Of a stretch of DNA of 64,000 nucleotides, positions 40,640-61,979 are shown piece after piece; positions within the stretch are counted from its first letter, which is position 1; every line of letters starts with the position of its first letter. Position numbers and translations under genes: made by a program. The notes under the pieces were generated by a model, which was not told the DNA's origin, made no database searches, and saw only the letters and a list, made by a program, of their open reading frames with translations. The DNA lies in IMG/VR virus record IMGVR_UViG_3300035698_024626, positions 12,818 through 76,817 of that record. The stretch is one strand, 5' to 3'. The stretch comes from a virus.

Positions 40640-40879
40640 ATGATTAATGTAACTTTAATTACGAACAATGGTGCGGGCGTACCCGCGAGGATTCCTGTGG
40701 TCGAAGGTACGACCCTGGAAAAGTTCTTGGAAGTTTCGTTTGAAGGCGACCCGGATGAGTTCACTATTCGGGTTCGCGCCAACGGGGAGACTGTTGAAGT
40801 CGAGCAGGATTATGTTCTCCAGGATGGGGATCGCATTTCAATGGCACCTACTAAAATTGATGGTGCAGTAGTACTGTAA
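40640..40879 (+). CDS. Ubiquitin-like (ThiS/MoaD beta-grasp) protein, 79 aa, with C-terminal extension
   Basis: MINVTLITNNGAG...VVEGTTLEKFL...IRVRANG...DYVLQDGDRISMAPTKIDG-AVVL; RBS GGGAGA. Confidence 0.85.
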   Translation: MINVTLITNNGAGVPARIPVVEGTTLEKFLEVSFEGDPDEFTIRVRANGETVEVEQDYVLQDGDRISMAPTKIDGAVVL

Positions 40880-40964
40880 TTTATCAAGCTATACTGTAGG
40901 TTGATTTAGCCGATGGTATAACTTCGATTAACGAGTTTTAGGGAACCAACAAAAGGAGAAGAAC

Positions 40965-41204
40965 ATGAAGGGTCCAGGAACAAAAAGTCAGCAAATCCAA
41001 TCGTTGAGGGACAAGGTTGGCGCTGCCGGTGTGAAAAACGTTGACACTATCGTCAAAGATTATTCGCCAAGCGAAATTGCGTTGGCGTATAGGCTCTCTC
41101 GCAGAAGCACCGCACTTCCCAAGTCAGTTACCAATCTGTTAGGCAACCTTCCTGAAGGTGAAGCCAAGGCAATTCGCGACAAGCTTTTGGCAGCCAAGGG
41201 CTAA
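40965..41204 (+). CDS. Small basic hypothetical protein
   Basis: Strong RBS AAGGAG; followed by a terminator. Confidence 0.7.
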   Translation: MKGPGTKSQQIQSLRDKVGAAGVKNVDTIVKDYSPSEIALAYRLSRRSTALPKSVTNLLGNLPEGEAKAIRDKLLAAKG

Positions 41205-41227
41205 CGGCTACAACAAGTCAAATTCCC

Positions 41228-41266
41228 AGAGGGGGTGGGGGGAGTATTCCCCCGCCCCTTTCTTTA
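41228..41266 (+). terminator. Rho-independent terminator
   Basis: AGAGGGGGTGGGGGA-gtat-TCCCCCGCCCCTTTCTTT. Confidence 0.75.
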
Positions 41267-41315
41267 TGGTGCTAAAGCGGGAAGAAAACCAGAACCTATC
41301 CTCAAGGATTTTCAA

Positions 41316-41600
41316 ATGAATCAAATTACTTTGCAACCAACGATTTTCATCAACTATCCGCAGAAAAGCCTGAGAAGAATTGAGACCTACGGTTATCGTA
41401 TGTACGACGACGAAGGTCAAACTTATTTCAGTAGGTGGAAGTCTATCCCCGATAATAGCCTGGAGGTTCTGAGACAAGCTCTCGAAGATGCAGATGAGGT
41501 CGCTGGAGACATGTTCAGCTACGTACTAGAACACCAATGCGGAATGAACATAGGCGACGAGTGGTATGATTGGGACGAAATTAGCCATCTGTTTGAATAG
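41316..41600 (+). CDS. Hypothetical protein
   Basis: MNQITLQPTIF...; AAGGA upstream. Confidence 0.6.
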   Translation: MNQITLQPTIFINYPQKSLRRIETYGYRMYDDEGQTYFSRWKSIPDNSLEVLRQALEDADEVAGDMFSYVLEHQCGMNIGDEWYDWDEISHLFE

Positions 41601-41613
41601 GCAGAAATTCGTT

Positions 41614-42804
41614 ATGAACGAAAAACTAATACAACGTGCTGCGATTAAATACCAGCAGTGGATGGTTGCCGAATCGCATCGCCCATGCTGTATTTCCAAA
41701 AACACAATCGACAACCATCTCGCAACGGTCTCACTCCAAGTGAGCCAAATGCAAACATGGAGCGAACGGTTTTTTCGCGGTCAATACCCCCGTGTCACTC
41801 ACGGTCTCCTCGGCCCAGAAGTATACAAAAACATTGCCACGAATATGATCCCCGCTTTGGGGATCGATGCGGTAAATGGCATCAACCTCGCAATTAAAAC
41901 CCTCAAGAAAATAATAAAAAACACAATCTCACCCATCACACTAAGAGGAGCAATCGAGGAAATCACGATCGTCACCAAAGCATGGCAAAGGGTTAAATTC
42001 AAAGACAACACGCTGGCAGTTCTCATTTCCGATGTCACCTTGTCTGACGAAAACCAAGAGGTAAACTTAGGAAGCTTTTGGATACATTTGAACCTTACTA
42101 ATCCCAACGAAGAGTTAAGAACCTACTCGGTCGATGAGGTTATGTCGGAAGATGGCAACTACTGCCACCCTCATATAACAAACGGTGAACTCTGCGAAGG
42201 TGATGGCAAGTATCTGATGCAAGAAGCTCTTAGTCAAGGCCGGTTGGAAGATTACTTTAGAATTGTCGAAGCTATCCTTAGAACGTACAACTATAAATCC
42301 CCCTACGCAAAACTCGAAGAATGGTATAATCCTTCACATGAAAGCGAATTCTACTGCGAACAATGCGACGAGTGGCGACTTGAAGAGGATGGGTGTTGGT
42401 GCGAAGGGTGTCAAACACAACACTGTGAGTCCTGCGCTGCCGGTGGTTGCTGTATCGACTGTGGCGAATGGAACTGCGACGAGTGTGGTAAGTATTGTAG
42501 CGACTGTGGAGAAAGAGTGTGTCATGATTGTGTAAGTGATTGCGAGGATTGTGGCAATCACCTTTGTTCATCATGTCTGGTTGGGTGCTCAAACTGTGCA
42601 AATTATTACTGTAAACATTGTATAGTGTCCTGTGATGATTGCGGTGACAACATATGCAAAGAATGTCGAATAGAATGCGACGAGTGTAGGAAAACTCTGT
42701 GCCCTGAGTGTGTACAAAAGTGTTGTGATGAATGTGGTCGAGAATTGTGCGATAATTGTATTAAGCAGGATTGTGGCTGTTTACTAACAAAAATGGACAA
42801 ATAA
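41614..42804 (+). CDS. Prokaryotic E2 (ubiquitin-conjugating-like) protein with C-terminal Cys-rich tandem repeats
   Basis: YCHPHITNGELCEG matches the E2 HPN-x-G-x-IC active site, followed by LRTYNYKSPY; then 39 Cys, mostly in ~15-residue CxxCx4CxxC repeats. Confidence 0.78.
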   Translation: MNEKLIQRAAIKYQQWMVAESHRPCCISKNTIDNHLATVSLQVSQMQTWSERFFRGQYPRVTHGLLGPEVYKNIATNMIPALGIDAVNGINLAIKTLKKIIKNTISPITLRGAIEEITIVTKAWQRVKFKDNTLAVLISDVTLSDENQEVNLGSFWIHLNLTNPNEELRTYSVDEVMSEDGNYCHPHITNGELCEGDGKYLMQEALSQGRLEDYFRIVEAILRTYNYKSPYAKLEEWYNPSHESEFYCEQCDEWRLEEDGCWCEGCQTQHCESCAAGGCCIDCGEWNCDECGKYCSDCGERVCHDCVSDCEDCGNHLCSSCLVGCSNCANYYCKHCIVSCDDCGDNICKECRIECDECRKTLCPECVQKCCDECGRELCDNCIKQDCGCLLTKMDK

Positions 42805-42809
42805 AATCA

Positions 42810-43562
42810 TCATAAGCGATAATCATGAATTTTTTGGACGAGAGCAAGAAATTCGTCGGGCGTTTGATCAGCCTTCATTTTATTCACATCCCTCGTTACC
42901 CATTCTAGATTGGTTATATTTGAGGCTAGATCAGGGAACTTAGCTCGTGGAAATTTATGATCTAATGAATCGTTCAACCCCAATATGAGATGCTCACCGG
43001 TATATGGACATTTCCAATCTTGTGATTCCAACAAGGCCAGTAATGTTTGCCAATAGCCAACCGTTTTCAAATGATAACGAGACTTATTCTTGATGTAACA
43101 GACCTGGCATAAAACAGCATAATGCATCCTGTAATTTTTCCCACAATAATGGCATAAACCGGCATCTGTCAATGATGCCCTACGTTGCTTTTCCCAATTC
43201 CTTATTCTCATCAAACAGGATTCACATGATTTTTTACCAGAAGTTTTTCCGCCACATTGACCACACAATCCTTGTCTAATCCAAGTATCTCGTCGTTGTT
43301 TACAATAAGCATTTTTCTGCTCTAAACAACTAGAACAGCGAGTACGCCCGTGCTCAACCTTCTGATTACATTGCACACACTGCCCTTGGATTTTCCTTTT
43401 TTCTATTGCAATAAGTAATTGATGACATCTTTTGTTAGCGCACTTGTCACAATACGCCCCGCCATCTGTTTTAACTCCACATGAGAGACACAAGTGCTTC
43501 TTACGTCTTGCCTGAGAGTATTCTTTTGAGTATTCACGAAATTTCTCTTTAGTCCACGCCAT
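42810..43562 (-). CDS. Zn-ribbon repeat + HNH endonuclease, antisense within the Ubl cluster
   Basis: Four CxxC...CxxC repeats, then CPYTG...SLDHKFP...NLEWV...VNKMK; own GTGTATAAT element. Confidence 0.75.
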   Translation of the reverse strand: MAWTKEKFREYSKEYSQARRKKHLCLSCGVKTDGGAYCDKCANKRCHQLLIAIEKRKIQGQCVQCNQKVEHGRTRCSSCLEQKNAYCKQRRDTWIRQGLCGQCGGKTSGKKSCESCLMRIRNWEKQRRASLTDAGLCHYCGKNYRMHYAVLCQVCYIKNKSRYHLKTVGYWQTLLALLESQDWKCPYTGEHLILGLNDSLDHKFPRAKFPDLASNITNLEWVTRDVNKMKADQTPDEFLALVQKIHDYRL

Positions 43563-43606
43563 CGCAAATATTATACACCAACTCAAACCCTTTTAAGGAG
43601 AAAAAG

Positions 43607-44533
43607 ATGGATATGACAAAAAAAACTTTAAAAATCACAAAGCCCAAAACATCTTATGCCGACACGCTAAGAATTTCACCATTCGCTTTTGCAAAGATAC
43701 GGTATTGGAGAGACTATGGGGACGTAGAGGTGGCGGCATATGCCACAACTGGAACAGATAATCCTCTGCTCATTACTGACTTTCGACTAATTAAGCAACA
43801 ATCCTCAATAGGAGACTTTGATCTCGATCCTAATGATTTAGCCAAAGATGTCGAACGCACACTAGATGATGGGCTATGCCCATGGCAGACCCACAACATC
43901 TTGGTGCACAGTCACCCAGGCAATTGCCCAAACCCATCTGGCACTGACGAACATAACTTTCAGAAAGCATTTTCCCATCCTGATTGGGCAATCATGTTGA
44001 TTATAGCCCAAGATGATTCTATGTATTGTCGTCTAAAACTCAACACCGGCCCAGGCGCAGAAAAACTACTGAAAGTCCAAATTGATTTTAGTCAAGAATT
44101 CCAAGCCTCCGACCATACGGCGTGGAAAACAGAGTACGAAAAGAAGGTTACAAAACAGCAATTCTTTATGATTGATGAAGAAGGCTTCTCAGCACAAGCA
44201 CGAATACCAACAAACAAGATACAAACCGCCTGGGAAAAATACCTTGAAGGGTCTAATGACAACCAAGACATGGAACTTGACTGCGACTGGGATGAAGACG
44301 GAGCCGTTTCCTGTTTCAACGATGAAGACGGTACGTGGTATGTGTATGATCCTGTTACTCGACAGTGGTATGTAGAAGACCTTTTCGGTAATGATGAACA
44401 CGTATCAGAAATCCAAGCTCCAAATGGACCATGGACAGCAAAAATCCTAGCGTGGGCAGAAAAACACGCTGATGAACGCAAATTGGCAATGGAACGAAAG
44501 GACGATTATAATCGCAGTGGTTGCAGACCATAG
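43607..44533 (+). CDS. JAB/MPN+ (JAMM) metallopeptidase, deubiquitinase-like
   Basis: VEVAA ... HSHPGNCPNPSGTD (E...HxH-x7-S-x2-D); acidic C-terminal extension. Confidence 0.85.
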   Translation: MDMTKKTLKITKPKTSYADTLRISPFAFAKIRYWRDYGDVEVAAYATTGTDNPLLITDFRLIKQQSSIGDFDLDPNDLAKDVERTLDDGLCPWQTHNILVHSHPGNCPNPSGTDEHNFQKAFSHPDWAIMLIIAQDDSMYCRLKLNTGPGAEKLLKVQIDFSQEFQASDHTAWKTEYEKKVTKQQFFMIDEEGFSAQARIPTNKIQTAWEKYLEGSNDNQDMELDCDWDEDGAVSCFNDEDGTWYVYDPVTRQWYVEDLFGNDEHVSEIQAPNGPWTAKILAWAEKHADERKLAMERKDDYNRSGCRP

Positions 44534-44552
44534 GACAATCAAGGATTAACCC

Positions 44553-44828
44553 ATGAACAAATCACAACGTTATGTTGGACTGACTTACCCTCGTCTTTTA
44601 GAGTGGAAAGTAATCCATAGTCTGTGGAAGAAATTCTTGTGTCCCAAACATATCCATCTGTTCGACGAAACCTTATCCTCTGAACACACCTTAAACTGTA
44701 GTGCTTGTGGATTAGTGGTCCACATTGCCCTTATTGAAACTGAAGAAGAAGCTTGTGCCAGAGCGAAGAAGGGATTATATATAGCAACTTGGGCAATAAA
44801 ACAAAGGGTAAGCCTGATGCTACGATAG
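44553..44828 (+). CDS. Hypothetical protein
   Basis: 91 aa; CPKH...CSAC. Confidence 0.55.
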   Translation: MNKSQRYVGLTYPRLLEWKVIHSLWKKFLCPKHIHLFDETLSSEHTLNCSACGLVVHIALIETEEEACARAKKGLYIATWAIKQRVSLMLR

Positions 44829-44884
44829 AAGTAGATATGTCTAGATTTATTTGACCTGACTAGGGAACGGTTAAGGAGAAAAAA

Positions 44885-45541
44885 ATGACCATAATCGCAG
44901 ACAGAAATATCCGCCAACGCGAACTTATCCCTCCAGACAAACTAGCACAAACAAGAATCACATTAATAGGTGTGGGCGCAATAGGCCGTCAAGCTGCGTT
45001 ACAATTAAGTGCTATCGGCGTGCCCAAACTTCAATTGATAGACTTTGATTTTGTTGCGCCTGAAAATCTCGCTGCTCAAGGCTTTTATGAGCAAGACCTA
45101 AACTCGCCAAAAGTCGAAGCCGTAGCTAATGTTTGCAGAGCAATCAACTCAGAAATCGAAGTAACCACTGCAAATAAACGATTCACGGGGTTGCAATTTA
45201 CTGGAGGTGTGATTTTTTGCTGTGTCGATAAAATCGAAACTCGCAGATCAATCTTCAATTCTGTAAAAAATCGTGCCAACTTGTGGATTGACTCCAGAAT
45301 GTCTGCTGAGTACCTGCGGATACTAACAATCTATGATAATCCCTCCCAGGAATACTATTTGACAACTCTATTCCCTGCCGCAGAAGCATACCAAGGAAGT
45401 TGCACAAACAAAAGTATCATTTATTGTGCCAATATCGCCGCAGGAATGATGGTAGCACAGTTCGCCAAATGGCTTCGTGGATGCGACCTCAACATGGACA
45501 TTGATCTTAATCTTCTCACCAATGAAATGGGAGTAAAATAA
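44885..45541 (+). CDS. ThiF/MoeB family E1-like adenylyltransferase
   Basis: RQ...LIGVGAIG...IDFDFVAPENL..Q...KV...CVD...R...DSRM; candidate catalytic Cys in QGSCT. Confidence 0.9.
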   Translation: MTIIADRNIRQRELIPPDKLAQTRITLIGVGAIGRQAALQLSAIGVPKLQLIDFDFVAPENLAAQGFYEQDLNSPKVEAVANVCRAINSEIEVTTANKRFTGLQFTGGVIFCCVDKIETRRSIFNSVKNRANLWIDSRMSAEYLRILTIYDNPSQEYYLTTLFPAAEAYQGSCTNKSIIYCANIAAGMMVAQFAKWLRGCDLNMDIDLNLLTNEMGVK

Positions 45542-45979
45542 ATGCTTACCTGTCCACTGTGCAACGGAGATGCAGAAGAATCTGGTACGCCAGATAAAAT
45601 AACGTGCCTTTTCTGTGGTTATGAAGGCCTAGATGGGGGTAAAATATTCAAGACGGTTCGCATCTTAATGAAATCACGAGGAAAAGCAATCAATATCAAC
45701 GTAATAGCATTAACCTTCGAAGAAGCATTTGGTTTCGTAGAAAAACACAATCTACGGGTAGACCCACTAATTGTGAAATGCGACGACCCCCCAGGATACC
45801 GAAAAAAACACTGGCATGTGGGACAAACCGTACTCTCAAGCAACGGGTGGACTAATATTTCCAATTGGCTTGTCAAAGGGAAAACAGCACTAGAAGCCAT
45901 CTCTATCACAAAATCATTCATAGAAACAGGGGAAAACCATAAACTATACAACGAAGGTGTTCTCAACAAATCGGAGTGA
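45542..45979 (+). CDS. Zn-ribbon hypothetical protein
   Basis: CPLC...CLFC N-terminus. Confidence 0.55.
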   Translation: MLTCPLCNGDAEESGTPDKITCLFCGYEGLDGGKIFKTVRILMKSRGKAININVIALTFEEAFGFVEKHNLRVDPLIVKCDDPPGYRKKHWHVGQTVLSSNGWTNISNWLVKGKTALEAISITKSFIETGENHKLYNEGVLNKSE

Positions 45980-46842
45980 AAGATGTAGCAGTCTTGTGCC
46001 AGACATTAAACGAGGTTAATATTACGATGCGAAGCATGTCAGGACAGGAAACGCTAGGAATTGATGATTGGTATAATGTATGGAACGACACCAATGATTA
46101 TAACGATTCGTGCGTTATTCGAGTAACAAATAAATGTAACGAGCAATGTCAACATTGCTGCTTTAGGTCAGGCCCCCTATGGAAAAAATATATATCAACT
46201 GAAAAAGCCATTAAGATAAATCAATGGTTGCCTAAAAAAATCACAATGTATATTATGGGGGGCGAATTTACCGTCTTAAAAAATTATCCCGAAATTATAT
46301 TAGCTTTAACGAAAAATAGAAAAAAAGTTCGTCTAGCTACTAACGGCCAATGGGCAACAACAAAAAAGAAATTACAAAAATTTGTCACAACTGTCAAACA
46401 AATCAAGAAGAATTGTAATGACTTAGATATATCCATTTCCGATGATCAATGGCATATCTCAAAAGGGGCAGTTAGTAAATATAAATTTATCAAATATAAC
46501 ACTGGCATCCCCGTTGCATTAAATCAAAACTGTAATCCAGCACCCATAGGAAGAGCGTGGGATAACAAATTAGTGTGTTTCCCAGAAATGTATGCATTAT
46601 GTAAAACAAAAAAGTATTTAATTATAACAGAAGATAGTATGATCCATAGATGCTCATCCGGGTATTTCCCTTGGAAATCTTTCGAAGAAACCACTTGGGA
46701 TGATGCCAGAGATTATATCTGGAGATGGAGATCAGAAAAACTTTCAGAAGGCATGAATTGCCATATTTGCATGGAAATAGTAGCAGCAGCTCGACATAGA
46801 ATCGTTGGAAGTGAAGCACCACCAAACACAAAAGAGGAATAA
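45976..46842 (+). CDS. Radical SAM protein
   Basis: CNEQCQHC, MGGE, ATNG; C-terminal Cys cluster. Confidence 0.88.
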   Translation: MKDVAVLCQTLNEVNITMRSMSGQETLGIDDWYNVWNDTNDYNDSCVIRVTNKCNEQCQHCCFRSGPLWKKYISTEKAIKINQWLPKKITMYIMGGEFTVLKNYPEIILALTKNRKKVRLATNGQWATTKKKLQKFVTTVKQIKKNCNDLDISISDDQWHISKGAVSKYKFIKYNTGIPVALNQNCNPAPIGRAWDNKLVCFPEMYALCKTKKYLIITEDSMIHRCSSGYFPWKSFEETTWDDARDYIWRWRSEKLSEGMNCHICMEIVAAARHRIVGSEAPPNTKEE

Positions 46843-49122: not shown

Positions 49123-50043
49123 ATGCTATCCCTGTACGACCAACGATTTGGGAAACTAGTAGCCATAGAACCACGTGGAAGCAATAAAAATAAACAAATT
49201 CTATGGCTATGTTTGTGCGATTGTGGGAATGAAGTAATTGTAGAAGGTAGAGCCCTTAAAGCCGGGCAAACAAAGAGTTGCGGATGTTTAGCCCTAGAAC
49301 AAGCAAAAAAGATGGGACTCAACAATAAAACCCACGGCCATAGTAAAAATGGAAAAAAGTCTAAAGTTTATATGGCGTGGGAAGCAATGATTCAAAGATG
49401 CACCAACCATAAACACAAATATTATAATATCTACGGAGGTCGTGGAATCACTGTTTGCGATCGTTGGTTGAAATTTGAAAACTTTCTTGAAGATATGGGA
49501 GAGTGTCCACCGGGTCTTACATTAGAACGTAGGAATAATAATAAAGGATACTCTCCCTCGAATTGTTATTGGGCAACATGGAAACAACAACAAAGAAACA
49601 GACGAAACAATAGACCAATAACACACAATGGGAAAACACAACTCTTGATAGAATGGGCAGAAGAAACAGGTATCGATAGAAAGACTATTACTGCGAGACT
49701 TAAGAGGGGTTGGTCAACAGAAAGAGCCCTTAAAACTCCGGTCAGAAAATGTAAAAGGAGAAATCAGATGGATGAGCTAGCAATGAAAACAATTGCGACG
49801 AATGTCGCCGAAGTATTCGAATCCCTGACTGACGTAAACGCAGAGGACTTCAAAGAGGTAAAACGATTATCGCAAAAAACCGTTGGTTTGCGCGAAACTG
49901 GAGCATTTAATGTTGGCGTAAGAATGCTGCGACGGAAGGACATCCGTGAACAACATGCCAAGCTGATGGCCGCGATCGCTGCGGAAAAGTGGGGCGAGGG
50001 GTTCCTGATGGCGCTGCAACTCATGGCAGCTTTTGGAGTGTAG
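49123..50043 (+). CDS. HNH-type homing endonuclease fused in frame to a downstream ~91 aa gene (internal start 49768)
   Basis: QRFGKL..WLCLCDCG..KSCGC..MIQRC..YGGRGITVCDRW..TLER..N; internal AAGGAG-ATG at MDELAMK. Confidence 0.8.
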   Translation: MLSLYDQRFGKLVAIEPRGSNKNKQILWLCLCDCGNEVIVEGRALKAGQTKSCGCLALEQAKKMGLNNKTHGHSKNGKKSKVYMAWEAMIQRCTNHKHKYYNIYGGRGITVCDRWLKFENFLEDMGECPPGLTLERRNNNKGYSPSNCYWATWKQQQRNRRNNRPITHNGKTQLLIEWAEETGIDRKTITARLKRGWSTERALKTPVRKCKRRNQMDELAMKTIATNVAEVFESLTDVNAEDFKEVKRLSQKTVGLRETGAFNVGVRMLRRKDIREQHAKLMAAIAAEKWGEGFLMALQLMAAFGV

Positions 50044-52616: not shown

Positions 52617-53116
52617 TACATGAACACGAAAGAGGTGGCATCCCAATTGCGCAAAATTCTGAACAGGGAAGACACGGAAACAGATGGCCTGATTAGGCGT
52701 GGCAAGTCATCCAAACACACCCATGAACTCGAAGTCCTGATGGAGCATGTTGCCTTGTTGGTAGCAGACCTGAGATTCGATGCTGAAGCATCTAAGAGAG
52801 AATTATTTGTAGCTCGTTCCCTTCTTGAAGAAATGCCCTAACAATCTGTTTAGTCTTTTTTTTTAATTGCCTTGGGAAAAGTGGACACTAAAAGGAAAGG
52901 AAATGAAAATGGAAAAGAAGTCAGAAGAACAAAAGCCACCAAGAAGTAGTCAAGTAAGAACAGTAGCCGATCTTAAAAGGATAATCGCTGAATGTCCTAA
53001 TGATCTACCAGTTGTTGGATTTTCTGGAGATGATGCAAAAGGCAATTGTTCCGTATATGTTAACGACGCCAGATACCCAACACTTCATATCAGACTTTGA
53101 GTTTCGAGGAAAGAAC

Positions 53117-54682
53117 ATGGATACATTTCAAAAGAACCTTATCGATTATCTTTGCTCAGGCCATTGTTTACTGCACGTCAGCACCTTTGAAAAAGACCGA
53201 GCAATAAATAGAATTAGCGAGGCCGCTAAGCAAATCAATCGCACGGTTCATATATGGTCAGTTGCGACAGGTTGGAAGAACGACCAGGGAGTCGTGGTGT
53301 CGGATGCTAAGCCGGGTTGCCCGGTAGAAGAAAGCCTCATGGCTATCACGGAATTCCCTCAGAATACTGTCTGTATCTTACAGGATTTCGATTGTTATTT
53401 GCGGCACGAAACCTACCCCGGTTTCGACATTATTATCTCATGGCTAAATGAATTACGACAAATGTTGTCAACTAATCAACAATCTATCATATTCGTAGGG
53501 CCAGCGTTTGAACCACCAATCGGATTGAAACATGATATTACTATGATAGATTTCGCCCTACCTGACACAAATCAAATTGAAGCTCAAATTATGTTCTCGT
53601 GCGAAGATGTGATGACAAAAGATGGAAAAAAGTTTGAGCCCAATCTAGACTTGCTCCCTCAAATAGTTGCTGCTTGTCGAGGCATGACGCAGCAGCAAAC
53701 CATTGACCGAGCTACGCTCACTTTAAGAAAGCATGGAGATTTTAACGAAGCTGCGATCAAAACAATTACTCGTGAAAAGGCTGCGGTCGTAAACGCATCC
53801 GGTCTTTTAACTTACATTGAACCGCCTGAAGGTGGGTTGTCGATTGTGGGTGGATATAGCGCTTTGAAACAGCACGTCCAACTCGATAAACCATGTTTTA
53901 CTACCGAAGCGAGAGAGTTTGGTATTGAATTTCCGAGGGGAATCATGCTCGTAGGAATCCCTGGTTGTGGAAAGACATTGCTGTCTCTTGCAATCGCATC
54001 GGAACTTGGTTTGCCACTCATAGCGATGGATGTTGGCAACCTAATGTCTAAGTACGTGGGCGAATCAGAATTGCACATGAGGGAAGCGATCGGTATGTTG
54101 GAGAGTATCGCGCCTTGTGTTTTGGTCTTGGACGAAATTGAGAAAGGCTTCGGGGGTGTGGGAGATATGGACGGGGGAGCATCACGTCGCGTATTTGGTA
54201 CATTTTTAAAATGGATGAACGACCGTACTTCTCCAGTTTATATAGTAGCAACAGCCAATCAGGTCCAGTCACTACCCCCGGAATTCTCCAGGAAAGGAAG
54301 ATTTGATGAAATATACGGACTTGACCTACCGGCAACTGAAGAGCGCGAAGAAATTTTTCGTATACATATAGCCAAAAGAGATAGGAAACCAGATGACTTT
54401 GACTTAGAAAAATTGGCCAACACTACTCCTGGGTATACAGGGGCAGATATTGAACAGATTGTTAAACTTGGCCTGAAGGTAGCATTCTCTGCCAAATTAC
54501 GACAACTCCAAACCGAGCATCTATTACAATGTGTAGAAGATATCATTCCGTTGTCTCAGACTGAAGAACAACGAATCAAGAACGTAAGAGATTGGTGCTC
54601 GCGACATGCTAAGCCTGCCAATCCACCAATAGAAAAGATATCCAAAGGTGGCGGCAGTAACAGAAAAGTTACCCTGAACTAG
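53117..54682 (+). CDS. AAA+ ATPase, Ycf46-like
   Basis: GIPGCGKT Walker A, LVLDEIEK Walker B, ATAN, LPPEFSRKGRFDE; degenerate N-terminal AAA domain. Confidence 0.9.
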   Translation: MDTFQKNLIDYLCSGHCLLHVSTFEKDRAINRISEAAKQINRTVHIWSVATGWKNDQGVVVSDAKPGCPVEESLMAITEFPQNTVCILQDFDCYLRHETYPGFDIIISWLNELRQMLSTNQQSIIFVGPAFEPPIGLKHDITMIDFALPDTNQIEAQIMFSCEDVMTKDGKKFEPNLDLLPQIVAACRGMTQQQTIDRATLTLRKHGDFNEAAIKTITREKAAVVNASGLLTYIEPPEGGLSIVGGYSALKQHVQLDKPCFTTEAREFGIEFPRGIMLVGIPGCGKTLLSLAIASELGLPLIAMDVGNLMSKYVGESELHMREAIGMLESIAPCVLVLDEIEKGFGGVGDMDGGASRRVFGTFLKWMNDRTSPVYIVATANQVQSLPPEFSRKGRFDEIYGLDLPATEEREEIFRIHIAKRDRKPDDFDLEKLANTTPGYTGADIEQIVKLGLKVAFSAKLRQLQTEHLLQCVEDIIPLSQTEEQRIKNVRDWCSRHAKPANPPIEKISKGGGSNRKVTLN

Positions 54683-54694
54683 AAGGAGAAAAAA

Positions 54695-55708
54695 ATGACC
54701 ACTACCGTTACGCAAGAACCAATGTTAGAGAAAGACACTATCAATCTTTTCAATGTCGGAGCGCTCATGAATCTCCGCGTAAAAATGTGGTCGGGTCGAA
54801 AAATGCTAACCCGCACCGACTTGATAAAAGTTGGATACGATCCAGATCATTTACCAGCAGACATAGTGAATCTTGGGCGAAAAAGTTTGGTGCCAAAAGC
54901 AGAACTACAGAATCTTACGCGCATCGAACAACAGGCTAGAAAGGGCCTCGAAAGATTTTCCGTGCCTTTTGGTATTGCCAACTCGCACTTTGTCCCTATC
55001 AAAATGTTACCCACGATAGTGCAACAACTAGAAGGCTTAAAAGAAGAATTCTTCACCAGAGTAGATAGCTTTATCACTCGTTTTGAAGACCTCAAAGCTA
55101 AAGTCGCAGCACAACACCCAGTATTCTGGACTAAATGTTTACAGGGCAACTATCCATCGAACCCCCAAGCACTAAGGCAATACTTCCATTTTGAGTGGTT
55201 TATCTTCAAAATCGCTGGCATGGATGCTATTCAACAATCCAGTGTGGAGGAAATGGTTGCTCAACAACAAGTCACTGATGAAAAACAATTAGAACTTCGT
55301 ACCCAGATGAAAAGCCAAATAGGCGAATTCGTCGGAGAATATGTTGGTGTAATGCGGGGAGAAGTTATTCGTTTTTGCGATCTAGTCACCAGTCGTATTA
55401 ACGGCAAGCCTTTTGGCGACGAAACTGAAGCGAAAAGACTCACCCCAAAATCTCTTTCCTGCTTCAGAAAATACATTGATCGATTCCATAATATGAATGT
55501 TTTTGGTGACACGGAAATCGAAAAGATGTTAAGAGAATTTAAGGAACAATTCCTCGATGACTTTTCAAGTCCTACAGATTTCGAGGGAGCTTCCGTAAAA
55601 ACTGGCATCACTACAGCACTAAGCGCTTTGCGGGAAAAGGCTCGCGCCGAAGGCGATAGCGGATCAAAGTTTATTGGTGGGTTAAAGCGAAAAGTGGTTT
55701 TAGATTAA
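54695..55708 (+). CDS. DUF3150-like protein
   Basis: WSGRKML...LGRKSLVP...FVP...YP pattern and position next to the Ycf46-like ATPase. Confidence 0.6.
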   Translation: MTTTVTQEPMLEKDTINLFNVGALMNLRVKMWSGRKMLTRTDLIKVGYDPDHLPADIVNLGRKSLVPKAELQNLTRIEQQARKGLERFSVPFGIANSHFVPIKMLPTIVQQLEGLKEEFFTRVDSFITRFEDLKAKVAAQHPVFWTKCLQGNYPSNPQALRQYFHFEWFIFKIAGMDAIQQSSVEEMVAQQQVTDEKQLELRTQMKSQIGEFVGEYVGVMRGEVIRFCDLVTSRINGKPFGDETEAKRLTPKSLSCFRKYIDRFHNMNVFGDTEIEKMLREFKEQFLDDFSSPTDFEGASVKTGITTALSALREKARAEGDSGSKFIGGLKRKVVLD

Positions 55709-55757
55709 AACAAGGAGAATTAGAACCCCAGTACTCACGAGATAAAAGGAGAAAAGC

Positions 55758-56174
55758 GTGAGCAGATTTTGCACAGTCGAAACCCAGTTTAAGGACGAAA
55801 ATGCTCTAATAGCGGCATTAATGGAAACAGGCGAATGGTCACAAGAACAGATAGAAATCCACGCTGAACCGCAGCATCTTTTTGGATATCATGGTGATAG
55901 ACGTTCCGAGACTGCCACAATTATTGTTCGACGAAAATTTATTAACTCTGCTTCCAACGATATCGGTTTCGTCAGGGGAGAAAGTGGTAACTACGAAGCT
56001 ATAATATCAGAATACGACAGATCGAAATATGGCATTAAATGGATGGCCACACTTAAAGCAAACTATTGCTACCACAAAATTAAAAAAGAACAAGAAAATC
56101 GTGGTAGGAAAGTGGCAAGAACGAGGTGTCCCCAAACTGGAAAGCAAAGAATCGAAATCGTAGGATATAGATAA
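55758..56174 (+). CDS. DUF1257 (Ycf35-like) protein
   Basis: SRFCTVETQFKDENALIAAL...GYHG...NDIGF...YEAIISEYD. Confidence 0.8.
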   Translation: MSRFCTVETQFKDENALIAALMETGEWSQEQIEIHAEPQHLFGYHGDRRSETATIIVRRKFINSASNDIGFVRGESGNYEAIISEYDRSKYGIKWMATLKANYCYHKIKKEQENRGRKVARTRCPQTGKQRIEIVGYR

Positions 56175-56560: not shown

Positions 56561-57187
56561 ATGCCAAGATTCATTGATTTGACTGGACAAAGATTTGGGA
56601 GACTTGTTGTTCTGAAATTAATTGGAAAGAATAAATGGGGCAGTTACCAATGGCTATGTCGATGTGATTGTGGCAAAGAAAAAATCGTGCGAATCGATAG
56701 TCTCAAAAGTGGTAGAACAAAGAGTTGTGGATGTTTGAATAGAGAAAGATTAACCAAGCATGGTCATTATGGAGATAGAACCTACAAATCGTGGAGCCAA
56801 ATGATTCAACGATGTACCAACCCTAATAATAAATATTTTAAAGATTACGGTGGTCGAGGTATTACGGTTTGCGAAAGATGGTTAAATTCTTTCCCGAATT
56901 TTCTTGAGGATATGGGAGAGAGCCCTAAAGGACACCAAATTGATCGAATGAATAACGATAAGGGGTATCACAAATCTAATTGTCTATGGGTTACGCCAAA
57001 ACAAAATAGCCGTAACAGACGAAGCAATCATCTGGAAACCCATAATGGAAAGACACAATGTATAACAGCTTGGAGCGAAGAGGTGGGAATTCCAGAATAT
57101 GTTATTAGACAACGACTTAAACACGGTTGGTCAATAGAAAGAGCATTAACAACACCAGTCAAAAAATATAAAAGGAGAAAATCTTGA
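56561..57187 (+). CDS. HNH-type homing endonuclease
   Basis: DLTGQRFGRL..CRCDCG..KSCGC..YGGRGITVCERW..IDR.NND; paralogue of 49123. Confidence 0.85.
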   Translation: MPRFIDLTGQRFGRLVVLKLIGKNKWGSYQWLCRCDCGKEKIVRIDSLKSGRTKSCGCLNRERLTKHGHYGDRTYKSWSQMIQRCTNPNNKYFKDYGGRGITVCERWLNSFPNFLEDMGESPKGHQIDRMNNDKGYHKSNCLWVTPKQNSRNRRSNHLETHNGKTQCITAWSEEVGIPEYVIRQRLKHGWSIERALTTPVKKYKRRKS

Positions 57188-59046
57188 TAGATATTAAGCT
57201 ATTAGAAAAAGCCTCCGCTGCGTACTATTCTGGCGAGCCTATTCTGTCCGATTCCGAATTCGACAAAATGTGCGCCGAATTACGACAAGTTGATCCTGAA
57301 AATCCTTTTCTAAAAAGAATCGGAGCCCCGCCCCCAGGAACAGTCAAGGCCAAACACAAAATTGCAATGGGCTCCCTATCTAATGCAAACAACGAAGAAG
57401 AATTTAAGCATTGGCTACAGACACTCCCGTCTAATCAAGTTCATCTGAGTCACAAGATGGACGGATTAAGCGTAGAACTGATATATCAAAATGGTTCTTT
57501 TATTCGCGCGATCACGAGAGGCGACGGTGAAATAGGGGAAGATGTAACGAAAAATGTCATCAAATCTGGAAATATACCTCTATTGATCGACAGAAACATC
57601 ACATCGATTCGGTGTGAATGCATTATCCTAAAAAGTGATTGGGCCGAATATTTCCAAGGAGATGCAAACCCAAGAAATAGTGCCGCAGGGACTCTTCGCA
57701 GAAAAGATGGACACAATGCAGAATACTTGCGTTTCTATGCCTTTGACGCAATCGGAATAAATTGGGATACAGAGTTCACAGCATTACTCACTCTACAGGG
57801 ATGGTTTTTCATCCCAGAATGGGAAATTGAAATAGATACCGATGTGAAATTCATTATCCGATGGTGCAAAAACCAAGAAAACAACAGAGATAATTTGAAG
57901 TATGAAATTGATGGCATTGTAGCTAAATTAGACGATCGCGTTCAATCACAAAAGATGGGAAGCCAAAATGATCGACCAAAATCGCAAATCGCCTTCAAAT
58001 TTACGCCCCGTGCGGCAGAAACCATTCTCCAAGAAGTTGTCTGGCAAATAGGAGCCACGGGCGCAATTGTTCCAGTGGCGGTAGTGTCCCCAGTCGGGGT
58101 CGGCGGAACAATTATCAAAAGAGCGTCCCTTTGCAACATGGACGAAATAGATCGCTTACAAATTGCTATCGGAGATACAATTGAGGTCATTAGGGCTGGA
58201 GATGTTATCCCCAAGATCATCCGACGAATTTCCAAAAGCACCAGTCGTCAAAAAATCCAAGCACCCACAACATGCCCAATCTGTAACTCACCACTTCAAA
58301 AAAATGGAGCACATCTATTCTGCTATAATTCCATGTGCGAAGGACGATCATTCTGTCGTGTAATGACTTGGATTAAAAAACGCAACATTCTTAACCTTGG
58401 TCCTGAAATCGTCAAAGCGATCGGCGTAGATTCTATCCATCATCTCTATGTCCTCAATAAAGATAAATTAGCGAACACACAAATAGGTAATGGAAGATTA
58501 GGCGAATCTCGCGCAAACAAAATCATAGCAGAACTTGAGAAATCTAGAACGGTTACTCTCTGGGAGTTCTTGGGCTGCTTAGGGATCAAAGGTATCGGTA
58601 GAACATTAGCAAAACAAATCGTTGTCAATCTGAAAATGAAAACTCTTGAAGACATCTTTGCTCTAACACCCAACGACATCCAAGGACTAGAAGGTTTCGC
58701 GGAACAACGAGCAGAAGATTTCTGTAATTGGTTAAAAGAACACGAACTAGAAATTGCTAAACTGGAGATGCAAATGGATTTTGAAGAAGAAAAAGAAACC
58801 ACTTCCACGGACAACTCTCTTAACGGAGAAGTAATTTGTTTTACTGGTAAGAGTCCCAAACCCCGGAGTGAAATGGCAGAAATGGCTGCAAAAGCAGGGG
58901 CAACGGTGGGCAGTTCTGTAACAGGCAAAACAACTATTTTGGTTATTGCCGACCCAAACTCTGTGTCAAGCAAAGCCGTTAAGGCAAGAAAAGCTGGTGT
59001 CAAATTGATCAGCCCAGAAAACTTTCTCGAAGTTGTAAGTCAATAA
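57184..59046 (+). CDS. ligA: NAD-dependent DNA ligase
   Basis: YY..D..FD, KMDG, TRGDG..GEDVT, NPRN.AAG, DGIV, RAGDVIP, Zn finger, HhH and BRCT. Confidence 0.95.
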   Translation: MIDIKLLEKASAAYYSGEPILSDSEFDKMCAELRQVDPENPFLKRIGAPPPGTVKAKHKIAMGSLSNANNEEEFKHWLQTLPSNQVHLSHKMDGLSVELIYQNGSFIRAITRGDGEIGEDVTKNVIKSGNIPLLIDRNITSIRCECIILKSDWAEYFQGDANPRNSAAGTLRRKDGHNAEYLRFYAFDAIGINWDTEFTALLTLQGWFFIPEWEIEIDTDVKFIIRWCKNQENNRDNLKYEIDGIVAKLDDRVQSQKMGSQNDRPKSQIAFKFTPRAAETILQEVVWQIGATGAIVPVAVVSPVGVGGTIIKRASLCNMDEIDRLQIAIGDTIEVIRAGDVIPKIIRRISKSTSRQKIQAPTTCPICNSPLQKNGAHLFCYNSMCEGRSFCRVMTWIKKRNILNLGPEIVKAIGVDSIHHLYVLNKDKLANTQIGNGRLGESRANKIIAELEKSRTVTLWEFLGCLGIKGIGRTLAKQIVVNLKMKTLEDIFALTPNDIQGLEGFAEQRAEDFCNWLKEHELEIAKLEMQMDFEEEKETTSTDNSLNGEVICFTGKSPKPRSEMAEMAAKAGATVGSSVTGKTTILVIADPNSVSSKAVKARKAGVKLISPENFLEVVSQ

Positions 59047-59109
59047 GGAAATTCATATGAAAATGGATTGGCTAGAACTTGAAACACGAAGACGTTAGAG
59101 GCAAAGCAA

Positions 59110-59511
59110 ATGGATGAATACCACCAAGCTGGTCTTGATAACGAAGTAATCTGTTTCACTGGGAAGAGTCCAAAACCCAGAAAAGAAATGACAAAAATAG
59201 CCAACCAAGCAGGCGCTACGGTAAGTAATTCTATCACCAAAAAAGTAACTATATTGGTAATGGGTAATCTGAATTCTACATCAAGCAAAGCTGTGAAAGC
59301 CCGAGCCCTCGGAATACAACTCATTACTCCAGAAACATTTCTTCAATTGGCTGAAAATATGTCTTGGTCCGATGGTTTGAAGGAAGCGCATGGCATGCTA
59401 TACGGGAAAAACAGCCCAATAACTATTAATAAACATACTAAACACCATAGAAAAGATCAACAATCCAAAAAACAAGGACCGCCACGTAGACGAGTAATAT
59501 TAGATAAATGA
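59110..59511 (+). CDS. Stand-alone BRCT domain protein, duplicate of the ligase C-terminus
   Basis: EVICFTGKSPKPR...AGATV..S.T.K.TILV...SSKAVKAR shared with ligA. Confidence 0.85.
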   Translation: MDEYHQAGLDNEVICFTGKSPKPRKEMTKIANQAGATVSNSITKKVTILVMGNLNSTSSKAVKARALGIQLITPETFLQLAENMSWSDGLKEAHGMLYGKNSPITINKHTKHHRKDQQSKKQGPPRRRVILDK

Positions 59512-59645
59512 GGTAAAGGGAAAAGAATTGTTAGCAGCCCTTGGACTGACAGCAGATGAAATCATAGAATTAGGACGCTTGTGATTACTCAAACAAATTT
59601 GCCCTGTATTGTACATAATTGGCATTAGGAGAAAGATAAAATAAT

Positions 59646-61314: not shown

Positions 61315-61775
61315 TAATGTCACCATACGTCTGGCATGTTTACGAAACAATATAAGGAAAAAATTTCACCACGAATAAAAAACACATCATAACAGCTATC
61401 AGAAAAGAGTCGCTAGACCTTCCACCTAGCAAGTTCGTAGCTATTCTCGAAGAGTTCCAATTGGAATCATATTCAAAAAGATGTCTCAATGAAATGCCTC
61501 TATGTAGACTTCAAGATATGCTAGAAAGACTTAGAAGATTAATAATATTGGGTTAATACCCTAGAAAGGAAAATGACATAATATGAGAAAAGTACATTAC
61601 AGAGTTGTATTGGATGTGTACGTACACGAAGATGACGGTGCAGACATGACAGATCGCTTGATGGAATCTGGTTTTGTTATTGATTATTATCAAGACGAAG
61701 TTGGAGAAGTAGGCGACATACAAGATATCTCCACAGAGAGTGTCGAAGCCATTGATTCTCGTTGAGGAGAAAATC

Positions 61776-61979
61776 ATGCAGAAAAAAAAGGTTGTAGTGG
61801 AAATTGATGCAGAAGGAAACTGTTCTATAGATGGGCAAGGGTTTCAAGGAACAGAATGTAGTCATTTTATTGGCGAAATTGAAGAGGCTTTAGGACAGAA
61901 AATATTTCAAAGAGATAAGCCTGAATATAGACAAAGGCGAACAATTAGTAATCGGAACCTTCAGAAAGGAGGCCGATGA
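61776..61979 (+). CDS. DUF2997 protein
   Basis: VVVEIDAEG.CSIDGQGFQGTEC....IEEALG......KPEY. Confidence 0.82.
   Translation: MQKKKVVVEIDAEGNCSIDGQGFQGTECSHFIGEIEEALGQKIFQRDKPEYRQRRTISNRNLQKGGR

What the first reader, a model, noticed from the sequence alone, without database searches (positions are those of the whole stretch)
40640..45541. Complete phage-encoded ubiquitin-like conjugation system (Ubl, E2, JAB, E1)
Seen: within 5 kb on one strand lie a beta-grasp Ubl, an E2 with an HPH-x6-C active site, a JAMM peptidase with intact HxH..S..D and a ThiF/E1 with a candidate catalytic Cys. The Ubl ends ...KIDG-AVVL, so removing 4 residues would expose a Gly on a 75 aa protein. No thiamine or molybdopterin genes are nearby. 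Established: bacterial E1/E2/JAB systems (CBASS Cap2/Cap3, Bil) conjugate proteins in anti-phage defence, with JAB priming the C-terminus. Inference: here the machinery is on the phage side and could tag host proteins, modify phage proteins or jam host Ubl defence.
Basis: partly seen in the sequence, partly recalled or inferred. Interest (0 to 1): 0.88.

Follow-up and report, generated by a model that had tools for sequence, protein, structure and literature searches.

The report
Phage-borne ubiquitin-like conjugation gene set
A large phage from salt-lake metagenomes carries genes for a small ubiquitin-like tag, an E1, an E2 and a JAB peptidase, and this set is the viral branch of a large, apparently undescribed family otherwise found mainly in Planctomycetota genomes.

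Summary
Ubl (40640-40879), E2-like (41614-42804), JAB (43607-44533) and E1/ThiF (44885-45541) lie on one strand. The contig is an IMG/VR virus record with a terminase and a portal.

- **E2:** its core folds as UBC (best Z 7.8, and all 50 listed rows are E2/UEV/RWD). HPH-x6-C is invariant in 51 homologues.
- **JAB:** the full E…HxH-x7-S-xx-D motif is present.
- **E1:** it passes Pfam ThiF, and Cys173 aligns with ThiF Cys184. It lacks the usual NLxRQ arginine.
- **Ubl:** Gly75 is invariant in 10 loci and is followed by variable 1-4 residue tails. In one locus the Ubl is fused in frame to the next gene, which argues for processing at Gly75.
- **Synteny:** the order Ubl-E2-JAB-E1 recurs in 8 related viral contigs and 2 distant metagenome contigs.

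New here: the E2 family has 1063 cluster representatives at E≤1e-10 and no model in Pfam, NCBIfam, PADLOC or PHROGs. A Planctomycetota chromosomal group is separated from the virus-holding group.

Conjugation itself, the targets and the biological role are inferred, not shown. The Ubl fold was not modelled. I class it as a new variant of the known prokaryotic E1/E2/JAB/Ubl kind. The scan noted this stretch only on this same genome.

The parts
40640..40879 (+). Ubl: 79-aa ThiS/MoaD-like small protein; conserved ...AP-x-K-(I/V)-(D/E)-Gly75 followed by a 4-residue tail (AVVL)
   Evidence: Gly75 is invariant in 8 viral and 2 metagenome loci. The tails after it vary (E, AV, A, P, S, ACR, ACQ, AVVL). 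In L003 the Ubl is fused in frame to the next gene.
40965..41204 (+). 79-aa small protein of unknown function, an accessory partner of the Ubl
   Evidence: Homologues follow the Ubl in L002 and L003. In L003 the homologue is fused to the Ubl directly after Gly75. No family hit.
41229..41261 (+). Terminator-like G+C-rich hairpin (15 pairs, 9 G-C) followed by a T-rich tail (6 T in the next 10 bases), after the Ubl and the small gene
   Evidence: Similar G-rich inverted repeats follow the Ubl gene in L001, L003, L004, L005 and L007. Its function is inferred.
41614..41925 (+). E2 N-terminal region (residues 1-104): long two-helix hairpin
   Evidence: AF2 model m7895b2b9b32d has helices 3-57 and 68-102. 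Structure matches are only generic helical hairpins.
41926..42348 (+). E2 UBC-like core (residues 105-245) with His185-Pro-His187 (42166-42174) and candidate catalytic Cys194 (42193-42195)
   Evidence: Z up to 7.8; all listed rows are E2/UEV/RWD. (ESM Atlas structure: UQ_con clusters at TM 0.52-0.55). The motif is invariant.
42349..42804 (+). E2 Cys-rich tail: 39 Cys and 17 CxxC at a period of 7-8 residues, taken to be a chain of zinc-binding hairpins
   Evidence: counts. (beta-hairpins, pLDDT 81-96). (weak profile hits to FYVE/PHD/B-box/RING fingers, E 0.006-0.06). The tail is conserved across the whole family.
42810..43586 (-). HNH endonuclease gene inserted between E2 and JAB; not part of the system
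   Evidence: It is present at the same place in L001 and L002 and absent in L003-L008.
43607..44533 (+). JAB/JAMM metallopeptidase (308 aa) with a conserved Trp-rich C-terminal extension of about 170 residues; Glu41 (43727-43729), His101...Asp114 (43907-43948)
44553..44828 (+). 91-aa small Cys-containing protein between JAB and E1, accessory
   Evidence: A homologue is found only in L007/L008. No family hit.
44885..45541 (+). E1: minimal ThiF-type adenylation domain (218 aa); GxGxxG 29-34 (44969-44986), Asp115 (45227-45229), candidate Cys173 (45401-45403)
45976..46842 (+). Radical SAM protein, often linked downstream; its relation to the system is unknown
   Evidence: Pfam Radical_SAM 1.6e-9. 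Weak YydG-type hit. Present after E1 in L001, L003 (two copies), L007 and L008.

Best explanation
This is a working four-part ubiquitin-like protein conjugation module carried by a large tailed phage. The phage's relatives have complete genomes of 160-181 kb.

Proposed steps:
1. The Ubl is made as a precursor, in excess over the enzymes. A terminator-like hairpin separates it from the enzyme genes.
2. The JAB peptidase removes the four residues after Gly75. In a relative it would cut the Ubl from a fused downstream protein.
3. A dimer of the minimal ThiF-type E1 adenylates Gly75 and probably holds it on Cys173.
4. The Ubl passes to Cys194 of the UBC-fold E2.
5. The E2 has no separate E3. Its helical hairpin and long zinc-finger tail serve for docking and for choosing targets, and it transfers the Ubl to lysines of target proteins in the infected cell. 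The JAB could also reverse the mark.

Shown here: the genes, the catalytic motifs, the E2 fold, the synteny, the phage replicon, and the pattern at Gly75.

Inferred: every chemical step, the targets and the role. My best guess for the role is a conflict function, acting on host proteins or on competing phages. This rests on what tested bacterial relatives do and on the fast divergence of E2 and JAB compared with E1.
For: - Four domain families in fixed order in 8 viral and 2 distant metagenome loci.
- E2 core has a UBC fold, with an HPH-x6-C motif placed like the HPN...Cys of classical E2s and invariant in 51 sequences.
- JAMM motif complete and invariant.
- E1 passes Pfam ThiF. GxGxxG, Lys76, Asp115 and Cys173 are invariant in the seven viral E1s, and all but Lys76, which I did not check there, are also kept in the distant L012/L013. 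Cys173 aligns with ThiF Cys184.
- Invariant Gly75 followed by variable short tails, and one in-frame fusion.
- No sulfur-pathway partner genes on the contig or in four near-complete relatives.
- Phage identity: terminase and portal. The terminase is 77-81% identical in relatives that CheckV rates 97-100% complete, one with terminal repeats.
- Identity to the window protein is 36-48% for E2 and 43-53% for JAB, against 62-72% for E1.
Against: - No biochemical or expression data; no RNA run holds the stretch.
- The E1 lacks the arginine of the near-universal NLxRQ motif. It is Ala, Pro or Thr here, so adenylation chemistry may differ or be weaker.
- The E1 has no ubiquitin-fold or separate Cys domain, so E2 recruitment is unexplained.
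- The Ubl fold rests on weak sequence evidence only.
- Structure Z scores of 7-8 are middling taken singly.
- The role is a guess: all related viral loci were found by searching with the E2, so I cannot say the module is core to the phage clade.
Confidence: 0.6

Rival explanations
1. Sulfur-carrier pathway. The Ubl is a ThiS/MoaD-type carrier that the E1 adenylates and that is converted to a thiocarboxylate after JAB trimming, as in CysO/Mec+ or QbsE/QbsD. It would feed sulfur into a cofactor, a metabolite or a modified nucleotide of the phage, perhaps together with the nearby radical SAM enzyme.
For: The E1's best family matches are ThiF and MoeB, though far below their cut-offs. The Ubl's only sequence hints are ThiS/MoaD. 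JAB plus ThiS-like plus E1 sets without an E2 are known sulfur systems (PMC1779556). A radical SAM gene often follows.
Against: A conserved UBC-fold protein with an invariant HPH...Cys motif is part of every locus, and I know of no sulfur pathway with such a component. No rhodanese, cysteine desulfurase, MoaE or ThiG was found on the contig. The four near-complete relatives have no rhodanese or cysteine desulfurase. The radical SAM gene is missing in 3 of 8 loci.
Confidence: 0.08
2. Same chemistry, but the module is a defence cargo. A temperate phage carries a Bil-like anti-phage system that protects the lysogen or the infected cell from other phages by tagging their structural proteins. It would not be a tool against the host.
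For: All tested bacterial E1/E2/JAB systems act in anti-phage immunity (PMC11601596, PMC10557695, 10.1101/2023.09.04.556158). Every near-complete relative has one tyrosine recombinase. A sister group of the family sits on Planctomycetota chromosomes.
Against: The module lies among early and DNA-metabolism genes, in conserved synteny. Its proteins have diverged roughly in step with the phage genomes. A single tyrosine recombinase may serve dimer resolution rather than integration. No defence-associated regulator was seen in the ORFs scanned.
Confidence: 0.25
3. Decoy or antagonist. The phage copy interferes with the homologous host pathway. For example, the JAB strips host conjugates, or the phage Ubl, E1 or E2 soaks up host components. 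Productive conjugation by the phage set would not be needed.
For: Homologous cellular systems exist in the likely host phylum. The E1 lacks a conserved arginine.
Against: All four genes keep their catalytic residues in all viral loci. The same missing arginine is seen in the distant L012/L013 copies, so it is a family trait, not a sign of decay in phages.
Confidence: 0.07

Closest known systems
Bil (BilABCD, bacterial ISG15-like; Iyer 2006 class 6d)
   Same: Same four parts as separate genes: Ubl, E2, JAB peptidase, E1. In Bil the JAB cuts the Ubl to expose a Gly, there is no E3, and the E2 is thought to pick targets (PMC11601596, PMC10557695).
   Different: No PADLOC BilA/B/C hit; BilD matches only weakly over part of the E1 (2.1e-6). 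[quoted passage not shown] Class 6d E2s lack the classical histidine before the Cys (PMC1779556); this one has HPH. A zinc-finger tail and helical hairpin are present here. This set is encoded by a phage.
Bub / 6E (DUF6527) operons
   Same: Ubl, E2, E1 and JAB-type parts; a Ubl precursor (BubAB fusion) is cleaved by the JAB, which parallels the Ubl fusion in L003 (PMC11601596). The E1 profile hits BubCD at 5.6e-9.
   Different: Bub parts are fused (Ubl-E2, JAB-E1 or E2-E1), work through oxyesters without a catalytic cysteine, and come with a DUF6527 serine protease. Here the genes are separate, the Cys residues are invariant, and no DUF6527 hit was seen in the ORFs scanned.
CBASS Cap2/Cap3
   Same: An E1 domain (PADLOC E1-E2 models down to 1e-13) and a JAB related to Cap3.
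   Different: Cap2 is an E1-E2 fusion that conjugates the cyclase itself; there is no Ubl. The matches cover only the E1 Rossmann part and the JAMM motif.
UBA5-UFC1-UFM1 (and other non-canonical E1s)
   Same: From my own knowledge, not tested here: a minimal homodimeric E1 whose cysteine lies in the adenylation domain, no ubiquitin-fold domain, and a Ubl precursor trimmed to expose one Gly. Tested here: the E1 profile hits UBA5 at 3e-11.
   Different: UFC1 lacks the HPN motif (title of PDB entry 9i9m), whereas this E2 has HPH. There is no UFL1-type E3 here. This is a resemblance in layout, not close kinship.
Classical eukaryotic/archaeal UBC E2s (e.g. UBE2S, Ubc13, E2-25K; Caldiarchaeum operon, PMC5654768)
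   Same: Best structural matches (Z 7.2-7.8, up to 21% identity). The H-P-x motif lies shortly before the catalytic Cys.
   Different: No Pfam UQ_con hit. Asn is replaced by His. There are large extra N- and C-terminal regions. The partner E1 is of minimal bacterial type.
ThiS/ThiF, MoaD/MoeB and JAB-linked sulfur carriers
   Same: A small beta-grasp-like protein with a C-terminal Gly, a ThiF-type E1 whose Cys aligns with ThiF Cys184, and JAB trimming in some systems (PMC1779556).
   Different: A conserved E2 is present. No sulfur-transfer or ThiG/MoaE partners. The E1 scores far below the ThiF/MoeB equivalog cut-offs.
Lambdoid/T1 phage tail assembly proteins I and K
   Same: Phage-encoded Ubl domain with a C-terminal Gly beside a JAB peptidase (PMC1779556).
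   Different: Those have no E1 or E2 and lie in the tail module. This set lies among early and DNA-metabolism genes.

Membership tests
UBC/E2 fold superfamily | alpha/beta UBC fold: helix, four-stranded meander, active-site loop, two helices | tested here: met
   AF2 core model has pLDDT 86. All 50 listed rows are E2/UEV/RWD (best Z 7.8, rmsd 3.1, 116 residues aligned). The ESM Atlas model also finds UQ_con clusters (TM 0.52-0.55).
UBC/E2 fold superfamily | Catalytic Cys preceded by an HPN-type motif | tested here: met
   HPH185-187, six residues, Cys194, lying before helix 2. Invariant in 51 sequences. The third residue is His, not Asn.
UBC/E2 fold superfamily | Match to the Pfam UQ_con or Prok-E2 sequence models | tested here: not met
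   No Pfam family at E<=1. None in NCBIfam, PADLOC or PHROGs either.
E1 / ThiF-MoeB adenylation superfamily | Pfam ThiF above cut-off; GxGxxG loop and catalytic Asp | tested here: met
   95.5 bits against a cut-off of 28.1. G29xG31xxG34, Lys76 and Asp115 are invariant.
E1 / ThiF-MoeB adenylation superfamily | Arginine of the NLxRQ motif | tested here: not met
   ENLAAQ in the window aligns with ThiF SNLQRQ. The position is Ala or Pro in viral relatives and Thr in L012/L013.
E1 / ThiF-MoeB adenylation superfamily | Cysteine in the crossover-loop region able to accept the Ubl | tested here: inconclusive
   Cys173 aligns with ThiF Cys184 and is kept in the distant copies; Cys181 is not. Activity is untested.
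JAMM/JAB metallopeptidases | E...HxH-x7-S-xx-D metal and catalytic motif | tested here: met
   Glu41, His101, His103, Ser111 and Asp114 are invariant.
JAMM/JAB metallopeptidases | Pfam Prok-JAB above cut-off | tested here: inconclusive
   24.3 bits against a cut-off of 25, E 3e-5. PADLOC JAB 4.3e-5.
Ubiquitin-like beta-grasp (ThiS/MoaD/Ub) | Beta-grasp fold | not tested
Only weak hints exist: ThiS E 0.011 below cut-off, an Atlas neighbour cluster with ThiS on 17% of members, and no PDB profile hit.
Ubiquitin-like beta-grasp (ThiS/MoaD/Ub) | Conserved C-terminal Gly used for activation | tested here: met
   Gly75 is invariant in 10 loci, with variable tails after it.
Bil (BilABCD) | Matches to the BilA, BilB and BilC models | tested here: not met
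   PADLOC gives no hit for the Ubl or the E2; the JAB matches only generic JAB models.
Bil (BilABCD) | E1 with inactive plus active adenylation domains and a Cys domain | tested here: not met
   The E1 is 218 aa with one ThiF domain. The BilD model matches at only 2.1e-6 over 111 residues.
Bub / 6E | Fused Ubl-E2 and JAB-E1 (or E2-E1), a DUF6527 protease, and serine rather than cysteine chemistry | tested here: not met
   The genes are separate, the Cys residues are invariant, and no DUF6527 hit was found in the ten ORFs from 40640 to 46842.
CBASS Cap2/Cap3 | E1-E2 fusion next to a CD-NTase, with no Ubl | tested here: not met
   E1 and E2 are separate and a Ubl is present. None of the ten ORFs scanned gave a nucleotidyltransferase hit.
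ThiS/ThiF or MoaD/MoeB sulfur-carrier pathway | Partner genes: ThiG or MoaE, a rhodanese, a cysteine desulfurase | tested here: not met
   None on the 76.8-kb contig. No rhodanese or cysteine desulfurase in four relatives that are 97-100% complete. A host could still supply them.

The most novel reading that the evidence does not exclude
A clade of 160-180 kb phages uses its own ubiquitin-like cascade to tag proteins of the infected cell. The cascade has an E2 with a classical-type H-P-x...Cys site, a built-in zinc-finger 'E3' tail and the smallest known type of E1. That would be the first full conjugation system working for a bacterial virus rather than against it. It would also reveal a large, unstudied Ubl system in Planctomycetota. 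A remote cousin, an E2-like/JAB/E1-like trio, may exist in crAss-like gut phages.
Probability: 0.3. Interest if true: 0.88.

Novelty: new variant of a known kind. Interest (0 to 1): 0.74.

Why it matters
Every bacterial E1/E2/JAB system tested so far defends cells against phages. Here the same kind of machinery sits in phage genomes, intact in eight related viral contigs. That opens the question of what a phage gains from tagging proteins, as many animal viruses do with ubiquitin.

The E2 family behind it is large: 1063 cluster representatives at E≤1e-10, and one ESM Atlas cluster of 2546 members that is mostly Planctomycetota. It has no model in Pfam, NCBIfam, PADLOC or PHROGs, and I found no paper on it.

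It also joins features that known bacterial systems keep apart. These are a classical-looking E2 active site, a single-domain E1 without the usual arginine, and an E2 with its own long zinc-finger tail. This bears on how E3-free target choice and minimal E1-E2 hand-over can work. The four proteins are small and should be easy to test in E. coli.

Tried and rejected
I therefore could not read the gene neighbourhoods of the Planctomycetota chromosomal copies (for example WP_092056379.1) or ask whether they lie in prophages.
- **Genome-contig scans** with A1 and with P0085 found nothing. The search goes by short peptide patterns, and named Planctomycetota proteins exist, so this is no evidence of absence. 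Alignments A7 and A8 were too divergent to scan with.
- **Full-length E2 model.** Foldseek gave only weak rows, and the wide search was filled by helical hairpins. Folding the core alone solved this.
- **Foldseek on the core** gave no row at E≤0.001.
- **Bacterial E2s.** No Bil, Cap2 or Bub E2 was among the 50 rows listed. I take this only as 'not listed'.
- **PDB profile searches.** The Ubl profile gave no hit. The JAB profile gave one weak hit.
- **GenBank phages.** No E2 or JAB relative in 50,697 records, and no DNA match.
- **Expression.** No RNA holder is listed for the stretch.
- **Host.** The TnpB homologue search did not reveal a host. The genome search draws no relatives for a virus record.
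- **crAss001 gp78.** hhalign of the E2 core against it found nothing.
- **Literature.** Six searches found no description of this family or of a phage-encoded full set. Subscription papers are not covered, among them Burroughs et al. 2011 on prokaryotic RING fingers.
- **Rejected: alternative starts.** The ORF starts at 40544 (Ubl) and 41566 (E2) were rejected because the homologues start at MINVTL and MNEKLI.
- **Rejected: HNH gene as a component.** It is present in only 3 of 9 viral loci.

Full report
**1. What is there**

The window is bases 12818-76817 of a single 76,817-base IMG/VR virus record. CheckV rates the record 46% complete. On the + strand lie, in order:
- a 79-aa gene at 40640-40879
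- a 79-aa gene at 40965-41204
- a strong terminator-like hairpin at 41229-41261
- a poorly supported ORF whose listed GTG start (41235) lies inside the hairpin, so it more likely starts at the ATG at 41316; it runs to 41600 and has no relative in the related loci
- a 396-aa gene at 41614-42804
- an HNH gene on the opposite strand at 42810-43586
- a 308-aa gene at 43607-44533
- a 91-aa gene at 44553-44828
- a 218-aa gene at 44885-45541
- a 145-aa ORF, then a radical SAM gene at 45976-46842

**2. The four components**

*E1.* The 218-aa protein passes Pfam ThiF (95.5 bits, E 3.5e-27). It matches ThiF, MoeB, UBA5, UBA7, MccB, PaaA and BubCD in the PDB. The glycine loop G29xG31xxG34, Lys76 and Asp115 are invariant in seven viral relatives.

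Cys173 aligns with ThiF Cys184. It is kept in the distant copies of L012/L013, whereas Cys181 is not.

One hallmark is missing: the arginine of NLxRQ is Ala here, Ala or Pro in viral relatives, and Thr in L012/L013. An invariant Arg35 directly after the glycine loop might take its place, but that is inference. The protein scores far below the ThiF and MoeB equivalog cut-offs, so it is not a thiamine or molybdopterin enzyme by those models.

*JAB.* Glu41, His101-x-His103, Ser111 and Asp114 give the full JAMM motif and are invariant. Pfam Prok-JAB lies just under its cut-off (24.3 against 25 bits). PADLOC JAB and NCBIfam Cap3 models match the motif region. A conserved Trp-rich C-terminal part of about 170 residues has no match.

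*E2.* No library recognises it. Thirty-one close homologues gave a confident AF2 model (pLDDT 87.7) with three regions: a long helical hairpin (residues 3-102), an alpha/beta core, and a tail of beta-hairpins.

The whole model was uninformative in structure searches, because the hairpin dominated them. The core alone (residues 105-245; pLDDT 86, pTM 0.80) gave lists made up only of E2, UEV and RWD proteins:
- UBE2S: Z 7.3, rmsd 3.3, 118 residues aligned, 21% identity, in the search that does not depend on Foldseek
- E2-25K and UBE2S: Z 7.8 in the second look, where 168 chains reached Z≥5

Single Z values of 7-8 are middling. The weight lies in the uniformity of the lists and in agreement with an independent model: the ESM Atlas's own model of this protein has UQ_con clusters as its nearest named folds (TM 0.52-0.55).

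His185-Pro-His187, six residues and Cys194 sit between the last strand and helix 2, as HPN...Cys does in classical E2s. They are invariant in 51 sequences that are 22-41% identical to the alignment's reference sequence, P0085.

The tail holds 39 Cys in 156 residues, as 17 CxxC at a period of 7-8. It has weak profile similarity to FYVE, PHD, B-box and RING fingers (E 0.006-0.06).

The comparative pattern is strong. All ten homologues end ...AP-x-K-(I/V)-(D/E)-Gly at position 75 (76 in L004, which has a one-residue insertion). After the Gly come unrelated tails: E, AV, A, P, S, ACR, ACQ and AVVL.

In L003 the reading frame runs on from this Gly into a homologue of the next small gene (40965-41204 here). 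This recalls ubiquitin fusion precursors and the BubAB fusion (PMC11601596). It is what one expects if a peptidase exposes Gly75.

**3. Conservation and replicon**

The order Ubl-E2-JAB-E1 is found in all eight IMG/VR loci recovered with the E2 (contigs of 65-181 kb). The HNH gene is present in only two of them, and the radical SAM gene in five.

The 12.8 kb before the window encode a terminase large subunit (phrog_2, 1.9e-25) and a portal (8e-12). That terminase is 77-81% identical in five of the related records. Four of these are 97-100% complete by CheckV, at 160-181 kb, and one has direct terminal repeats. So this is one clade of large tailed phages, and the window comes from a fragment of such a genome.

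Each of the four near-complete relatives has one tyrosine recombinase, so a temperate life style is possible. Public runs that hold the stretch are salt-lake metagenomes. The host is unknown.

**4. A much larger family**

A profile of the E2 core, scored against 1.84 billion cluster representatives, found the following:

| E-value threshold | Cluster representatives |
|---|---|
| ≤1e-30 | 30 |
| ≤1e-10 | 1063 |
| ≤1e-3 | 2239 |

The distant members share the whole layout: hairpin, HPH...C core and CxxC tail. None of ten tested has a Pfam domain.

Named members come from Planctomicrobium piriforme, Lignipirellula cremea (on a 9.56-Mb contig) and Planctomycetota MAGs. Other members lie on contigs of 0.8 and 2.3 Mb. 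The Atlas lists a cluster of 2546 members, 77% bacterial and mostly Planctomycetota, and a second cluster of 335 members that is 71% viral.

Two metagenome contigs with a distant E2 (core E 1e-20) have the same four genes in the same order.

A quick FastTree of 80 E2s splits the rows into two groups with 99% local support:
- 51 rows, including all seven virus-labelled ones
- 29 rows, including all seven Planctomycetota-named rows and both large-contig rows

The tree is unrooted, has long branches and carries no bootstrap. I claim only that the two groups are distinct. I make no claim about the direction of transfer.

**5. How it most likely works**

See Best explanation for the steps. Three points support conjugation over sulfur transfer:
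- A conserved E2 with its Cys is present in every locus.
- The Gly75 processing pattern is conserved.
- Partner genes of sulfur pathways are absent from the contig and from complete relatives.

The terminator-like hairpin after the Ubl gene or genes recurs as G-rich inverted repeats in relatives. This fits a tag made in excess of its enzymes, but it is inference.

E2 and JAB have diverged much more than E1 (36-48% and 43-53% identity, against 62-72%). That fits the parts that touch targets, but it is not proof.

**6. Comparison with known systems**

Gene content equals Bil, but the defining features tested are not met: no BilA/B/C hits, a single-domain E1, and a different E2 motif. Bub is fused and uses oxyesters. 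CBASS has no Ubl.

In layout, the nearest analogue for the E1 is the minimal UBA5 type. For the E2 it is the classical UBC enzymes. I therefore class the set as a new variant of the known kind 'prokaryotic E1/E2/JAB/Ubl operon', and its carriage by phages is a notable point. I found no paper describing it; subscription literature was not searchable.

**7. Limits**

- There is no experiment, no expression data and no Ubl model.
- There is no residue-level check that Cys194 superposes on an E2 catalytic Cys.
- The viral loci were found through the E2, so its prevalence in the phage clade is unknown.

Noticed in passing
L010:977-4648 (crAss001 gp78-gp76) and L014:1830-5214 (uncultured phage cr128_1): Foldseek of the E2 core against viral models hits uncharacterised crAss-like phage proteins (prob 0.91-1.00, TMq 0.51-0.53). 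One is a 435-aa protein of cr128_1. Among the 13 CDS listed around its ThiF-like gene, the only one of that length lies directly before a metalloprotease-domain gene and the ThiF-like gene. I have not confirmed that the CDS and the hit are the same protein. crAss001 gp77 carries HSH-x7-S-xx-D, a JAMM motif. The gp78-type proteins share MHSHV...C-x-G-x-G. Sequence profiles show no link to the E2. crAss-like phages may carry an E2-like/JAB/E1-like trio with no recognised Ubl.
   Followed up: partly
window 53000-56174 and 61740-61979: AAA ATPase (PF00004 plus AAA_lid_3), DUF3150 and DUF1257 genes lie in a row. A small ORF at 61740-61979 was called DUF2997 by an earlier first-stage note, which I did not test. 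AAA, DUF3150 and DUF1257 lie 3-7 kb after the E1 in the phage relatives whose fetched locus reaches that far (L002 shows none of them within about 7.6 kb), and they are absent from the distant loci L012/L013. The linkage may only reflect synteny of close phages.
   Followed up: partly
It has 52-59% identical homologues at other places in L001, L002, L005 and L006, so it is probably coding.
   Followed up: partly
L007:5570-6878 and L008:10001-11309: The E2 of these two contigs (identical to P0019, 320 aa, also found in a marine sediment metagenome) stops after about four CxxC pairs. Cys-rich sequence continues in other frames. This could be a frameshift, a programmed shift or a shared assembly error.
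   Followed up: no
window 42810-43586 (-), 49123-50043, 62216-62755; L009:494-2260 and 8105-8902: Many HNH or homing-type endonuclease genes are scattered through the contig. The one between E2 and JAB is present in only 3 of 9 viral loci.
   Followed up: partly
window 3393-4571 (+) and 15069-16298 (-): Two IS605-type TnpB genes lie in a phage genome (phrog_506, about 1e-119). Homologues up to 92% identical are found only on unnamed metagenome contigs.
   Followed up: partly
window 45976-46842: A radical SAM protein with a weak YydG-type (peptide epimerase) match follows the E1 in 5 of 8 viral loci and is duplicated in L003. Its substrate is unknown; it could act on the Ubl or on a small peptide.
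   Followed up: no
G001-G004 (complete relatives): Each complete relative has one tyrosine recombinase of about 300 aa (PF00589, E 1e-40 to 1e-42). This may mean a temperate or plasmid-like life style for these 160-181 kb phages.
   Followed up: no
window 57184-60665: NAD-dependent DNA ligase, a separate BRCT protein, a dCMP deaminase-like gene and a gene matching a PHROG 'dehydrogenase' family (phrog_9582) lie downstream. This shows the module sits in the DNA-metabolism region.
   Followed up: no
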